A stretch of DNA of 64,000 nucleotides from an uncultured bacterium. GTDB taxonomy: Bacteria > Acidobacteriota > Thermoanaerobaculia > Multivoradales > J023. Below the pieces are notes generated by a model. It was given only the letters and a program-made list of their open reading frames with translations, was not told where the DNA came from and did not search any database. The position numbers were made by a program, and so were the translations under genes. Location of the stretch: assembly GCA_965371445.1 (NCBI GenBank), contig CBDUYN010000022.1, positions 19,482-83,481 of the forward strand. Direction: 5' to 3'. How positions within the stretch are numbered: position 1 is the first letter of the stretch; every line of letters begins with the position of its first letter. This document shows positions 41,401-42,900 of this stretch, in pieces.

Positions 41401-42296
41401 CCTTCGACCAGCTCTCCGGGCGGCCGTGGCGCCACCTCCCGATGGAGCCGCGCGAGCTCGCTCGGCGACCGGGCCTCGAATGCCGGCCGCCCGGTCACCA
41501 GCTCGTAGAGCACCAGCCCGAACGCGTAGAGGTCACTCTTGACCGAAGCCTCGCCGGCCTGGTGCTCCGGCGCCATGTACGCCGGGGTGCCGCCGAGGGC
41601 GTCGGCTCCGGCCACCGCGGCGAGCCCGAAGTCGGCGAGGCGCACCCGCCCCGTGTCGTCGATCATCACGTTGGCCGGCTTCAGGTCATGATGCAGGATG
41701 CCCTCGGCGTGGACCGCGGCCAGGCCCTCGGCCAGCTGCCGGCCGATCGTCACCACCCGGTCTTCGGGCAGTCGGCCGAGGCGCCGCAAGAGCCCGGCCA
41801 GGTCCTCGCCGGCGACGTGCTCCATCGACAGGAAGTGCCGTCCGCCGGCCTTGCCGACATCGTAGACCCGGCAGACGTTGGGATGGCCAATGGCCCTGGC
41901 GATGCGCACCTCGTCGAGCAGTAGCGCCAGTCTCGCGGGGTTGTCCCGGGCCGCTTCCGGCAGGAATTTCAGCGCCACCGTCTGGCCCAGCTTGAGGTCT
42001 TCGGCGCGGTAGACCTCGCCCATGCCGCCGCGGCCGAGGAGGCCCGCGACGCGGTAACGCCCGGCCAGGATCGTTCCGGCAGCCAGGCCGCCGGCCGGGC
42101 TTTCGAGAGTCCTGGCCAGACCCTCGTGGCCGGTGGAGGTGTCGTCCTGGTCGTAGGCGAGCAGCGAGAGGACCTCACGGCGCAGCTCGTCGTCGTCGCC
42201 ACAGGCCCGGTCGACGAACCCGCGGCGCTCAGGCACCGGCCGCTCGCGGGCCGCCAGGAAGAGCTCCTTGATCAGCGGGTTACGCTCCTCGCTCAT
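38445..42296 (-). CDS. Multidomain signalling protein: N-terminal Hanks-type Ser/Thr protein kinase, the same P-loop NTPase, single TM helix, C-terminal FGE-sulfatase (SUMF1-like) domain; paralog of 35266-38434
   Basis: Kinase motifs [34 protein letters not shown], APE. NTPase [28 protein letters not shown]...[24 protein letters not shown] and [33 protein letters not shown]. FGE domain [17 protein letters not shown]...[40 protein letters not shown]...[23 protein letters not shown]...[12 protein letters not shown]. The ATG overlaps the sigma-factor stop (ATGA). Confidence 0.85.
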   Translation of the reverse strand: [1283 protein letters not shown]

Positions 42297-42900
42297 GGCG
42301 CGTCGACCTGGGCGGCGTGGTGGGCCAGCTCGCGCTTCAACCAGGCCCGGGCGTAAGCCCAGTCACCCTGCACGGTGCGCCGTGAGACCTGGAGGAGGTC
42401 GGCGATCTCGATAGACTTGAGACCCGCGAAGAAGCGCAGCTCGACGATCCGCGCCTGGCGCTCGTCGATGGTGGCGAGCCGGGTGAGCGCGCGGTCGAGC
42501 GCCAGGAGATCCTCGGGGTCCCAGCCGTCCGCCGTGGCCGGGGCCAGCTCATCGGCAAAAGTGACGCGCTGCCAGCCGGCGCCGCGTTTGGCCCGCAGCC
42601 TGCCGCGGGCGTGATCGATCAGCACCCGGCGCATCATCTGGGCGCCAACGGCCAGGAAGTGGGAACGGCCGCGCCAGTCGACCTGGGTCTGGTCGACCAG
42701 CTTGAGATAGGCCTCGTGCACCAGGGCGGTCGGCTGGAGCGTGTGCCCGGGGCTCTCGCGCTGCATGAAGCGCGCCGCCAACCGCCGCAGCTCGTCGTAG
42801 ACCAGCGGCATCAGCTCCTCCGCGCCGGCCGCGGCACCGGCGTCGTCTCCGCTCAGGGCGGTGACGATCGCCGTCGCTTTGGACTTCGCAGGGCTCGCCA
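42293..42900 (-). CDS. ECF-type RNA polymerase sigma factor of the kinase-associated TIGR02999-like family
   Basis: Start MASPAKSKATAIVTALSGDDAGAAAGAEELMPLVYDELRRLAARFMQRESPGHTLQPTALVHEAYLKLV...SHFLAVGAQMMRRVLIDHARGRLRAKRG...IVELRFFAGLKSIEIADLLQVSRRTVQGDWAYARAWL matches the signature of the TIGR02999 sigma70 region 2/4 family. The stop overlaps the kinase ATG by 4 nt. Confidence 0.8.

What the first reader, a model, noticed from the sequence alone, without database searches (positions are those of the whole stretch)
42293..42900. Kinase-associated ECF sigma factor translationally coupled (ATGA overlap) to the Ser/Thr kinase-NTPase-FGE protein
The sigma-factor stop TGA overlaps the ATG of the kinase fusion (positions 42293-42296), so the two form one operon. 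In the TIGR02999-type family, sigma factors are controlled by kinase phosphorylation rather than by an anti-sigma factor. Here that kinase is fused to an NTPase and an extracytoplasmic FGE sensor. That implies a one-protein transmembrane pathway: periplasmic FGE sensor, NTPase switch, kinase, sigma phosphorylation. The likely regulon (divergent secreted zincin paralogs) lies immediately upstream.
Basis: partly seen in the sequence, partly recalled or inferred. Interest (0 to 1): 0.65.

Follow-up and report, generated by a model that had tools for sequence, protein, structure and literature searches.

The report
Sigma factor wired to immune-like receptor kinase
A phosphorylation-controlled (ECF43-type) sigma factor gene overlaps the start of a membrane receptor that joins a Ser/Thr kinase, a STAND (NLR-like) NTPase and an outward-facing lectin-like domain. 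That receptor sits tail-to-tail with a sister receptor carrying an NAD-destroying domain, which suggests an immune-style sensor pair with a transcriptional arm.

Summary
A 202-aa sigma gene (42293-42901, minus strand) ends in an ATGA overlap with a 1283-aa gene (38445-42296). The sigma scores 214.6 bits on TIGR02999 (cutoff 126) and has QPTA where ordinary ECF sigmas have an acidic motif, so Thr58 sits at the known ECF43 phospho-site. The kinase protein is: N-terminal three-helix bundle, Hanks kinase, nSTAND1 NTPase, one conserved TM helix, then a non-catalytic FGE/C-type-lectin-fold domain predicted to face outward.

- The convergent neighbour (35276-38434) is a paralog with the same NTPase-TM-FGE body but a DUF4062 (TIR-like NADase) head. 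This pair recurs in most related loci.
- The three-helix motif tracks sigma linkage. In 16 loci, 7 of 8 motif-bearing kinases have a PF07638 sigma adjacent or nearby, against 0 of 8 without it (p=0.0014).

The full trio (sigma, kinase receptor, NADase receptor) recurs in three other metagenomic loci at 45-55% identity. The closest ortholog has no sigma upstream of the kinase.

The zincin-regulon idea is unsupported: those genes are orphans, absent from the other loci, and share no promoter motif.

Verdict: a new variant combining two known kinds, ECF43 sigma phosphorylation and STAND-FGS conflict receptors. Interest is moderate to high. The mechanism is inferred, not shown.

The parts
42293..42901 (-). 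ECF43/TIGR02999-type sigma factor gene, 202 aa
   Evidence: TIGR02999 214.6 bits against a cutoff of 126; PF07638 E=5.7e-55. The database entry P0121 for this protein is also 202 aa.
42728..42730 (-). Codon ACC for Thr58, the predicted phospho-acceptor in sigma region 2.2 (motif L-Q-P-T-A-L-V-H-E-A-Y)
   Evidence: Position found. It matches the ECF43 consensus QTTA, EcfP STTA and EcfK QATE (PMC13147305, PMC8999054). In a profile alignment, M. tuberculosis SigL 'AQAEDVVQE' aligns with 'LQPTALVHE', so Thr58 falls on an acidic residue.
42293..42296 (-). ATGA overlap: sigma stop TGA and kinase start ATG
   Evidence: Read directly from the sequence.
38445..42296 (-). Gene for the 1283-aa receptor: three-helix motif, Hanks kinase, nSTAND1 NTPase, TM helix, FGE/C-type-lectin-fold domain
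   Evidence: About 25 full-architecture homologs were found.
42135..42296 (-). N-terminal pre-kinase three-helix bundle (residues 1-54), the sigma-linkage signature
   Evidence: AF2 gives helices 5-17, 21-32 and 36-54 at pLDDT 83-96, then a disordered linker. Near-invariant residues are A16, L28, C32, D35, L38, L45 and L46. It correlates with a neighbouring PF07638 sigma, p=0.0014.
41328..42056 (-). Hanks-type Ser/Thr kinase domain (residues 81-323)
   Evidence: Pfam Pkinase E=2e-46. Motifs present: [21 protein letters not shown], APE.
39597..41201 (-). nSTAND1 NTPase module with its helical C-terminal part (residues about 366-900)
   Evidence: PF20703 E=2.4e-20. Walker A is AASGTGKS and Walker B is VVDQLEE, with G56/G58/K59/S60 and D144/Q145 (A1 numbering) invariant.
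39516..39581 (-). Predicted single transmembrane helix (residues 906-927), preceded by [11 protein letters not shown]
   Evidence: Kyte-Doolittle average 1.77. An equivalent segment occurs in 25/25 homologs, with 5-10 K/R in the 20 residues upstream against 1-6 downstream.
38469..39101 (-). FGE-sulfatase (FGS / C-type-lectin-fold) domain, non-catalytic, predicted extracytoplasmic (residues 1066-1276)
   Evidence: PF03781 E=6.6e-40. Aligned to T. curvata FGE 6s07, 'GGSFLCHES' corresponds to 'GGDFAHGA'; the query has no Cys at the position of the catalytic Cys in that stretch, nor in the residues that follow.
35276..38434 (+). Convergent paralog: DUF4062 (NIR/TIR-like NADase), nSTAND1, TM helix, FGE-fold domain
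   Evidence: Pfam DUF4062, nSTAND1 and FGE-sulfatase. It is 56% identical to the kinase protein across the shared body. A near-invariant Glu86 lies in TEWE. The convergent pairing recurs in L001, L002, L004, L086, L087, L088, L113, L114 and L115.
42902..43060 (.). 159-bp divergent intergenic region, which must hold the promoter of the sigma-kinase operon and that of z1
   Evidence: No sigma-70 or ECF-type consensus was detected.
43061..44758 (+). z1: secreted orphan protein with invariant HExxH. Adjacent to the system, but membership is not shown.
   Evidence: No Pfam, NCBIfam or PDB hit. The family has 20 members, with H252/E253/H256 invariant. No homolog occurs in other sigma-kinase loci.

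Best explanation
The locus encodes a two-receptor sensing system with a dedicated transcriptional output.

**The receptors.** Two paralogous single-pass membrane proteins share one body: a cytoplasmic nSTAND1 NTPase, one TM helix, and an outward-facing, non-enzymatic FGE/C-type-lectin-fold ligand-binding domain. They differ only in the cytoplasmic N-terminal output domain.

**Transcriptional arm.** One receptor carries a Hanks Ser/Thr kinase preceded by a three-helix bundle that marks kinases partnered with ECF43 sigmas. The other receptor's arm is described below. The sigma gene is translationally coupled to this kinase gene. The proposed sequence is:
1. A ligand binds outside.
2. NTP-dependent oligomerisation of the STAND module brings kinase domains together.
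3. The kinase phosphorylates the sigma on Thr58 in region 2.2 (QPTA).
4. The phosphate supplies the negative charge that ordinary ECF sigmas carry there (DAED).
5. The sigma can then bind the RNA polymerase beta-prime clamp helices and switch on its regulon.

**NADase arm.** The other receptor carries a DUF4062/NIR domain, a TIR-like NADase. It would respond to a similar class of ligand by consuming NAD+.

**Shown versus inferred.** Shown here by sequence analysis: gene overlap, family memberships, intact catalytic motifs, conserved TM with positive-inside bias, loss of the FGE catalytic cysteines, recurrence of the gene trio, and the correlation between motif and sigma. Inferred from published work on EcfP/PknT and EcfK/PknS: phosphorylation of this Thr and its effect on RNAP binding. 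Inferred by analogy with STAND/NLR proteins: ligand-driven oligomerisation as the activating step. Unknown: the ligand and the regulon.
For: - **Sigma identity.** TIGR02999 at 214.6 bits against a cutoff of 126; PF07638 E=5.7e-55.
- **Phospho-site.** QPTA with Thr58 matches the consensus QTTA, EcfP STTA and EcfK QATE, in which the corresponding Thr is the mapped phospho-site (PMC13147305; PMC8999054). Thr58 aligns to Glu of M. tuberculosis SigL 'AEDVVQE'.
- **Coupling.** ATGA overlap. A sigma lies directly upstream of related kinases in L096, L114, L115, L116 and L117, with junctions from an 11-nt overlap to a 10-nt gap.
- **Three-helix motif.** 7 of 8 motif-bearing loci have a sigma adjacent or nearby against 0 of 8 motif-less loci, Fisher p=0.0014. 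It is modelled confidently as a three-helix bundle plus flexible linker. PknS, which has been shown to phosphorylate its sigma, has the same arrangement (PMC13147305).
- **Kinase.** Catalytic motifs are present.
- **NTPase.** The Walker A Gly/Lys/Ser and Walker B Asp-Gln positions are invariant across both paralog types.
- **Topology.** 25/25 homologs keep a hydrophobic segment after an Arg-rich cluster.
- **FGE domain.** It lacks the catalytic cysteines.
- **Paralog.** It has DUF4062 with a near-invariant Glu. DUF4062 is reported to be an NADase effector in phage defence (bioRxiv 10.64898/2026.05.01.722283 and 10.64898/2026.09.04.749371).
- **Trio recurrence.** Seen in L113, L114 and L115 at 45-55% identity.
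- **Precedent for the architecture.** STAND(nSTAND1)-FGS proteins with swappable N-terminal effectors, including S/T/Y kinases and TIR, were described as conflict systems (PMC8195603). My census of the 150 best cluster representatives found the same variety of N-terminal heads.
Against: - There are no experimental data for this locus, and no transcript data to prove co-transcription.
- The closest ortholog of the kinase protein (L004, 63% identity, motif present) has a subtilase gene upstream rather than a sigma. That contig ends about 0.5 kb past the paralog, so a sigma placed as in L113 cannot be excluded.
- The phospho-site is not universal among linked sigmas. L114 has Gln followed by Asp, and L116 has Ser.
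- The kinase has HHD in place of HRD. The catalytic Asp is kept, but activation may differ.
- No autoregulatory ECF-type promoter was found, and no regulon can be named.
- PADLOC has no model for the paralog and only generic kinase hits for the fusion. No DGR template lies in the window. The surrounding genes are largely metabolic or unrelated and do not look like a defence island. An immune role is therefore not established.
- Topology rests on one moderately hydrophobic helix (KD 1.77) and the positive-inside rule.
Confidence: 0.6

Rival explanations
1. This is an ordinary envelope or nutrient-sensing ECF43 pathway. The kinase is one more receptor kinase with an unusual extracytoplasmic domain, reporting a cell-surface or environmental glycan or peptide. 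The NTPase is a regulatory spacer. The neighbouring NADase paralog is functionally unrelated.
For: [quoted passage not shown]
- The characterised members respond to polymyxin and to amoeba predation, not to phage.
- The window is chromosomal and largely metabolic or unrelated genes, with cbb3 oxidase and succinyl-CoA ligase genes.
- L096 has the sigma plus kinase fusion without the paralog.
Against: - The kinase gene is convergent with the DUF4062 paralog in 10 of about 12 loci with enough downstream sequence, across 45-63% identity. That is too constant for coincidence.
- The shared body swaps N-terminal heads (DUF4062, TIR-like, calcineurin-like, kinase), as conflict-system STAND proteins do (PMC8195603).
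Confidence: 0.25
2. The sigma-kinase adjacency in this window is a recent, functionally loose juxtaposition. The kinase-NTPase-FGE protein acts mainly on other substrates, as a STAND-receptor effector kinase, and the sigma is controlled by, or also by, other kinases in the genome.
For: - Most kinase-nSTAND1-FGE genes lack any nearby sigma: L001, L002, L086, L087, L092 and L094.
- The closest ortholog, L004, lacks an upstream sigma.
- The window sigma's best relatives (63-70% identity) are far closer to it than the sigmas of the other fused loci (38-47%). Sigma and receptor have therefore not been inherited together as one unit.
Against: - The window kinase carries the three-helix motif, which in this sample is found only with sigma-linked kinases (p=0.0014).
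- The 4-nt overlap leaves no room for independent regulation.
- The same sigma-to-kinase order with overlapping or near-abutting junctions recurs in L114, L115 and L096, which are only 45-55% identical.
Confidence: 0.1
3. The hydrophobic segment is not a membrane helix. The FGE-fold domain is then an intracellular invader sensor, as Kaur et al. proposed for STAND-FGS systems, and the protein is a cytosolic NLR-like kinase.
For: - Kaur et al. 2021 describe the FGS domains of such systems as intracellular sensors.
- The window segment has only moderate hydrophobicity (KD 1.77).
Against: - The segment is conserved in position in 25/25 homologs, with KD up to 2.6, and is always preceded by 5-10 Arg/Lys residues.
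- TM segments are drawn in nSTAND1-CLec proteins that are DGR targets (PMC10907252).
- An invariant Cys pair in the FGE-fold domain (A1 positions C791 and C796) would fit a periplasmic disulfide.
Confidence: 0.05

Closest known systems
ECF43 sigma / Hanks kinase pairs: EcfP-PknT of Vibrio parahaemolyticus and EcfK-PknS of Xanthomonas citri
   Same: - TIGR02999/PF07638 sigma lacking the acidic region-2.2 motif, with a Thr at the mapped phospho-site.
- Adjacent Hanks kinase and no anti-sigma factor.
- The kinase has an N-terminal helical region before the catalytic domain, as PknS does.
- The kinase is a single-pass membrane protein with an extracytoplasmic domain.
   Different: - A roughly 560-aa nSTAND1 STAND NTPase sits between the kinase and the TM helix. 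I found no description of this for ECF43 kinases in the searchable literature. The domain survey in Iyer et al. 2020 could not be read.
- The sensor is a non-catalytic FGE/C-type-lectin fold.
- A paralogous receptor with an NADase head is encoded tail-to-tail.
- The kinase has HHD instead of HRD.
STAND NTPase-FGS 'conflict systems' (Kaur, Burroughs, Iyer, Aravind, eLife 2021, PMC8195603)
   Same: - N-terminal effector, then nSTAND1, then C-terminal FGS (PF03781).
- S/T/Y kinase and TIR-type heads are listed among the effectors.
- Genomes often carry two or more copies with different heads.
   Different: - Here a TM helix puts the FGS domain outside the cell, whereas that paper proposes intracellular sensing.
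- No DGR was found in the window.
- The kinase head is of the sigma-coupled type, and an ECF43 sigma gene is attached. This gives the receptor a transcriptional output that the paper does not describe for this system; it mentions ECF sigmas only for EACC2-caspase systems.
DUF4062/NIR NADase defence proteins: Avs2 variants, Swarozyc, Vulcan, Vesta (2026 preprints)
   Same: - The convergent paralog has an N-terminal DUF4062 domain with a near-invariant Glu, fused to a STAND NTPase.
- This matches the layout of DUF4062-Avs proteins: effector, STAND, sensor.
   Different: - The sensor is an extracytoplasmic FGE-fold domain behind a TM helix, not cytoplasmic TPR repeats.
- The NTPase is nSTAND1.
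- No PADLOC model matches.
- No defence phenotype is known.
DGR-diversified nSTAND1-CLec 'antigen sensors' of multicellular bacteria (Dore et al., PNAS 2024, PMC10907252)
   Same: nSTAND1 plus a C-terminal C-type-lectin/FGE-fold domain, sometimes with a TM helix. Two target genes per locus is common.
   Different: - No reverse transcriptase or template repeat was detected. Only paralog-to-paralog similarity was found.
- A sigma factor and a kinase head are present here.

Membership tests
ECF43 / TIGR02999 (Sig-70_X6) kinase-regulated ECF sigma factors | Scores above the curated cutoff of the family HMM | tested here: met
   TIGR02999 at 214.6 bits against a cutoff of 126.15; PF07638 at 186.5 bits against 21.1. 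The ECF Hub group HMMs themselves were not available.
ECF43 / TIGR02999 (Sig-70_X6) kinase-regulated ECF sigma factors | The acidic DAED/DxxD motif of region 2.2 is replaced by uncharged residues, with a Thr at the third position (consensus QTTA) | tested here: met
   The motif is QPTA with Thr58. A profile alignment places Thr58 and Ala59 opposite Glu and Asp of M. tuberculosis SigL. The literature motif comes from PMC13147305 and PMC8999054.
ECF43 / TIGR02999 (Sig-70_X6) kinase-regulated ECF sigma factors | Co-encoded Hanks-type Ser/Thr kinase and no co-encoded anti-sigma factor | tested here: met
   The kinase gene overlaps the sigma stop. None of the larger ORFs scanned around the pair hit an anti-sigma Pfam family. 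Small ORFs were not scanned exhaustively.
ECF43 / TIGR02999 (Sig-70_X6) kinase-regulated ECF sigma factors | The sigma is inactive until the cognate kinase phosphorylates it | not testable with these tools
   This needs a kinase assay with phosphosite mapping and an RNAP-binding or reporter assay.
Hanks-type (eukaryotic-like) Ser/Thr protein kinases | Gly-rich loop, VAIK Lys, catalytic-loop Asp, DFG and APE motifs | tested here: met
   GRGGMGEV at 88, VALK at 107-110, HHDLKP at 202 (catalytic Asp204 kept, Arg replaced by His), DFG at 222 and APE at 242. Pkinase E=2e-46.
nSTAND1 STAND NTPases (PF20703) | Pfam model above cutoff, with intact Walker A and Walker B | tested here: met
   74 bits against a cutoff of 27.1. 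Walker A is AASGTGKS and Walker B is VVDQLEE, both invariant across eight kinase-type and DUF4062-type sequences.
Formylglycine-generating enzymes (catalytic FGE/SUMF1) | The pair of copper-binding catalytic cysteines near the C-terminus | tested here: not met
   Where T. curvata FGE (6s07) reads GGSFLCHES, the window protein reads GGDFAHGA, with no Cys there or in the residues that follow. The domain has the FGE fold (PF03781, E=6.6e-40) but should not be called an FGE enzyme.
STAND NTPase-FGS conflict systems (Kaur et al. 2021) | Architecture of variable N-terminal effector or adaptor, then STAND NTPase (NACHT, MNS or nSTAND1), then C-terminal FGS domain, often in several copies with different heads | tested here: met
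   There are two adjacent copies, one with a kinase head and one with a DUF4062 head. Among the best 150 cluster representatives, 44 have DUF4062, 25 have a kinase, and many have other heads.
STAND NTPase-FGS conflict systems (Kaur et al. 2021) | Counter-invader (immune) function, with frequent DGR association | tested here: inconclusive
   No template-repeat match to either FGE 3' end was found in the window. The ORFs scanned show no reverse transcriptase, but the window was not scanned exhaustively. There is no PADLOC system match. Function is not testable here, and DGR association is frequent rather than defining.
DUF4062 / NIR TIR-like NADases (applies to the convergent paralog) | DUF4062 Pfam match and the catalytic Glu | tested here: inconclusive
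   PF13271 E=6.2e-09, at 36.4 bits against a cutoff of 24.7. Glu86 in TEWE is nearly invariant in 13 paralogs. I did not align it to the experimentally defined Glu of PsAvs2 (E108) or KpSwz (E97), so the equivalence is presumed.

The most novel reading that the evidence does not exclude
This would be a membrane-spanning, NLR-like (STAND) receptor pair acting as a two-armed immune or conflict sensor. One paralog converts an extracellular lectin-domain recognition event into gene expression, by phosphorylating a dedicated ECF sigma factor through a three-helix sigma-docking module. The other paralog executes NAD+ depletion. It would be a bacterial STAND/NLR-type receptor with a direct transcriptional output through sigma-factor phosphorylation. 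It would also link two fields, ECF43 signalling and STAND/NLR-type conflict receptors, that I did not find connected in the searchable literature.
Probability: 0.3. Interest if true: 0.8.

Novelty: new variant of a known kind. Interest (0 to 1): 0.6.

Why it matters
ECF43 sigma factors are the clearest case of a bacterial sigma factor switched on by Ser/Thr phosphorylation. Only two pairs (EcfP-PknT and EcfK-PknS) are covered in detail in the papers read here, and what their kinases sense is unclear.

STAND-FGS receptors are proposed immune sensors, and their kinase-headed versions have no known substrate. This locus, together with three other loci carrying the same gene trio, offers answers to both gaps.
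- It gives a concrete substrate, the sigma, for a STAND-receptor kinase.
- It gives a concrete sensor class, an outward-facing lectin-fold domain gated by an NTPase, for an ECF43 pathway.

The three-helix N-terminal motif is a simple sequence marker for picking out sigma-coupled kinases. It is also a candidate sigma-docking domain that can be tested directly.

The paired kinase and NADase receptors suggest a graded response, with transcription first and NAD+ depletion as a last resort. That idea is testable by genetics.

Tried and rejected
1. **Genome-contig scan** with the full-body alignment A1.
2. **Looking up the window's own proteins** to identify the source genome returned 'not on record'. 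The listing of cluster members gave no names or accessions. The organism therefore remains unidentified. The one named relative is from a Holophagales MAG; the other related sequences are from unnamed MAGs or metagenome contigs.
3. **Iyer et al. 2020** (Nat Microbiol), which surveys the domain architectures of ECF43 kinases, is not held. The Casas-Pastor 2021 supplements are not held either. I cannot exclude that an NTPase/FGE-type kinase appears in their tables.
4. **DGR hypothesis.** I searched the window for a template repeat matching either FGE 3' end. Only paralog-to-paralog similarity appeared, so this was rejected for this window.
No ECF-type -35/-10 pattern is shared between the sigma, z1, z2 and paralog upstream regions, or with sigma upstream regions in six other loci. 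The test has low power, so the result is inconclusive rather than negative.
7. **PADLOC** gave only generic kinase-domain hits (PD-T4-6, mad6) and nothing for the paralog.
8. **Pfam on the 79-aa kinase N-terminus** at E up to 10 found no family.
9. **Hairpin at the convergent 3' ends.** It is strong in the window but not conserved in six other loci. I treat it as a by-product of the paralogs' similar C-terminal codons.

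
Full report
**1. The observation**

The window has 66.8% G+C. On the minus strand an ORF runs from ATG 42901 to TGA 42293 and encodes 202 aa. A longer reading from ATG 42976 is possible. It is not favoured, because a GGAAGG Shine-Dalgarno precedes 42901 and homologous sigmas begin at the equivalent position.

The stop codon overlaps the ATG of a 1283-aa ORF (38445-42296) in the sequence ATGA at 42296-42293. That ATG is the first start codon in its open frame, and the encoded N-terminus aligns with homologs from residue 1.

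The overlap is therefore real. Four-base overlaps are common and mean little on their own. The evidence for linkage comes from comparative data (section 4).

**2. What the two proteins are**

*The sigma.* It scores 214.6 bits on TIGR02999 (cutoff 126.15) and E=5.7e-55 on PF07638. In the literature this family is ECF43, whose hallmark is a neighbouring Hanks kinase (PMC13147305, PMC7826278).
- ECF43 members replace the acidic region-2.2 motif (DAED/DxxD) with uncharged residues. The consensus is QTTA, EcfP has STTA and EcfK has QATE.
- The Thr at the third position is the mapped phospho-site.
- The window sigma reads H-T-L-Q-P-T-A-L-V-H-E-A-Y, so the site is Thr58.
- A profile built from seven such sigmas aligns 'LQPTALVHE' to 'AQAEDVVQE' of M. 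tuberculosis SigL. Thr58 and Ala59 therefore occupy the positions of Glu and Asp.

*The downstream protein.* Its parts, from N- to C-terminus, are:
- **Kinase (residues 81-323).** The Pkinase domain has a Gly-loop, [13 protein letters not shown] and APE.
- **NTPase (380-562).** The nSTAND1 domain has Walker A (AASGTGKS) and Walker B (VVDQLEE).
- **TM helix (906-927).** A single hydrophobic segment follows '[11 protein letters not shown]'.
- **FGE fold (1066-1276).** This is a PF03781 FGE-sulfatase domain.

All 25 full-architecture homologs keep a hydrophobic segment at the same place. It is always preceded by 5-10 Arg/Lys residues in 20, against 1-6 after it. The topology is therefore predicted to be N-in, C-out.

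Aligned with T. curvata FGE, the domain has no Cys at the position of the catalytic Cys in 'GGSFLCHES' (query 'GGDFAHGA'), nor in the residues that follow. It is a lectin-fold binding module, the 'FGS' of Kaur et al., not an enzyme.

**3.

The gene converging on the kinase gene (35276-38434, plus strand, 10 bp between the stop codons) encodes DUF4062, nSTAND1, a TM helix and an FGE fold. Over the shared 880-920-aa body it is 56% identical to the kinase protein.

Two 2026 preprints show DUF4062 to be a TIR-like NADase effector in phage-defence proteins, with a catalytic Glu. The window paralog has a Glu (E86, in TEWE) that is nearly invariant among 13 paralogs.

Kaur et al. 2021 (PMC8195603) described STAND(nSTAND1/NACHT)-FGS proteins with interchangeable N-terminal effectors, including TIR and S/T/Y kinases. 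They noted that these often occur in several copies per genome, and they interpreted them as counter-invader systems.

I searched every 50%-identity cluster representative with the nSTAND module. This gave 194 hits at E<=1e-30. Among the best 150, 44 have DUF4062 heads, 25 have kinase heads, and many have other heads that look TIR-like, calcineurin-like or nuclease-like. That matches their description.

**4. Comparative genomics of the linkage**

I assembled contexts for kinase-nSTAND1-FGE genes from exact-protein look-ups and one metagenome scan.

*The paralog pairing.* The kinase gene is convergent with a DUF4062 paralog in the window, L001, L002/L003, L004, L086, L087, L088, L113, L114 and L115. 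The paralog is absent in L090 and L096. This pairing is therefore the most constant feature.

*The sigma.*

| Locus | Position of PF07638 sigma relative to the kinase gene |
|---|---|
| Window | directly upstream, 4-nt overlap |
| L114 | directly upstream, 11-nt overlap |
| L115 | directly upstream, TGATG (1-nt overlap) |
| L096 | directly upstream, 9-nt gap |
| L113 | 4.4 kb away, beyond the paralog |
| L001, L002, L086, L087, L088, L092, L094 | none found |
| L004 (closest ortholog, 63% identity) | none upstream; a subtilase gene lies there |

*The three-helix motif.* What separates the two groups is a roughly 55-residue N-terminal extension, with the pattern R..I..LF..A..L....R..FL...C..D..LR.EV..LL. 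It is present in the window, L004, L096, L113, L114 and L115, and absent from all the sigma-less kinases.

As controls I looked up three ordinary, non-fused kinases:
- Two carry the motif (P0059 and P0091). Each has a PF07638 sigma immediately upstream.
- One lacks it (P0084) and has no sigma.

Overall, 7 of 8 motif-bearing loci have a sigma adjacent or nearby, against 0 of 8 motif-less loci (Fisher p=0.0014).

AF2 with a 41-sequence alignment models the motif as a confident three-helix bundle (helices 5-17, 21-32 and 36-54; pLDDT 83-96). A disordered linker joins it to the kinase. The crystallographers of PknS, which is known to phosphorylate its ECF43 sigma, report that AlphaFold2 predicts the same arrangement for PknS's unresolved 81 N-terminal residues. 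The motif matches no Pfam family.

I infer that it is the element coupling these kinases to their sigmas, possibly as a docking domain. This inference is not tested.

**5. Mechanism**

The best-supported reading has these steps:
1. The outward-facing lectin-fold domain binds an unknown ligand.
2. The membrane-anchored STAND NTPase oligomerises.
3. The kinase heads become active and phosphorylate Thr58 of the co-translated sigma.
4. The phosphate supplies the missing negative charge for RNAP binding, as shown for EcfP and EcfK.
5. The paralog uses the same kind of body to trigger NAD+ hydrolysis.

The first three steps are inferred by analogy. The sigma step rests on published experiments with homologs. 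The trio arrangement is shown here by sequence analysis.

Points against, or left open:
- The kinase is a non-RD variant (HHD).
- One linked sigma (L114) has Gln-Asp at the site, and another (L116) has Ser.
- The window sigma's nearest relatives (63-70% identity) are much closer to it than the sigmas of the other fused loci (38-47%). The modules have therefore been reshuffled rather than inherited together.
- No DGR, PADLOC system match or defence-island context was found.

**6. The regulon claim**

*Gene z1 (43061-44758).* It has a signal peptide and belongs to a 20-member orphan family; in the 19 members aligned, HExxH is invariant. It has no Pfam, NCBIfam or PDB match. An AF2 model found only Ig-like domains in PDB.

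*Gene z2.* It has HQVGH in place of HExxH. It resembles z1 only weakly, apart from an almost identical signal peptide.

Neither gene has a homolog in any other sigma-kinase locus. No shared promoter motif was detectable. The claim is therefore unsupported, though not disproved.

**7. Comparison and novelty**

As a sigma, this is an ordinary member of ECF43. As a receptor, the kinase protein fits the STAND-FGS architecture that has already been described. What I did not find described in the searchable literature is any of the following:
- the combination of an ECF43 sigma gene attached to a kinase-headed, membrane-spanning STAND-FGS receptor;
- the recurring trio with a NADase-headed paralog;
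- the three-helix motif as a marker of sigma coupling.

The main caveat is that I could not read the kinase-domain survey of Iyer et al. 2020.

I rate this a new variant of a known kind, with interest 0.6. The most novel reading not excluded is a two-armed immune-type receptor pair with a sigma-phosphorylation output. I give that reading a probability of about 0.3.

Noticed in passing
window 41683-41691 (kinase residues 202-204): The catalytic loop reads HHDLKP rather than HRDLKP, which makes this a 'non-RD' kinase. The closest ortholog and most relatives have HRD. Non-RD kinases usually do not need activation-loop phosphorylation.
   Followed up: partly
window 38399-38483: The last codons of the two convergent paralogs (GFRVVLAA and GLRVVLAG) form a long inverted repeat across the 10-bp gap. 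It folds as an RNA hairpin of -55.9 kcal/mol with z=-3.7. It could act as a bidirectional terminator. It is not conserved in six other loci, so it may be a by-product of paralogy.
   Followed up: yes
window 35276-35312: A large sensor histidine kinase gene (32175-35312; Reg_prop/Y_Y_Y propeller, HisKA, HATPase_c) overlaps the start of the DUF4062 paralog by 37 nt on the same strand. This suggests the two are co-transcribed.
   Followed up: no
window 44780-44830 and 43045-43100: The element GAGACAGAACCATGAA occurs twice in tandem just before z2, giving two possible starts (44797 and 44824). The ribosome-binding region and signal-peptide coding sequences of z1 and z2 are nearly identical (MRFHRMLTVILVAILLAA against MKIHRMLTVILFPILLAA), although the mature proteins are barely similar.
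   Followed up: no
L114 1665-2270 (sigma) and L116 3427-4011: In the L114 sigma the phospho-acceptor Thr is replaced by Gln followed by Asp (QSQD), which may be a phosphorylation-independent variant. In L116 it is Ser. The Thr of the preceding 'HTL' is invariant in all seven sigmas.
   Followed up: no
L004 7887-8387 (minus strand): In the closest relative of the window locus, the near-invariant Glu of the DUF4062 domain (TEWE) is Gln (TEWQ). This is the same kind of substitution (Glu to Gln) that the experimental papers use in their catalytic-Glu control mutants.
   Followed up: no
window 38445-39560 (extracytoplasmic part) and alignment A1: A Cys pair ([12 protein letters not shown]; C791 and C796 in A1 numbering) is invariant in all eight kinase-type and DUF4062-type sequences. 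It would fit a disulfide in an oxidising periplasm. About 140 residues between the TM helix and the FGE fold match no known domain.
   Followed up: no
window 26326-27501 (minus strand): An AAA_14 + DUF4143 ATPase matches the PADLOC candidate defence family PDC-S01 at E=2.2e-86. It lies about 8 kb from the paralog. An Uma2-family putative endonuclease lies at 56778-57437.
   Followed up: no
Proteins P0026, P0035, P0041 and similar: The same sigma-coupled three-helix motif plus kinase occurs in front of quite different C-terminal bodies, such as WD40 beta-propellers in P0026 and P0035 and the uncharacterised bodies of 900-aa Acidobacteriota kinases. The motif-kinase unit therefore looks like a portable output module.
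   Followed up: partly
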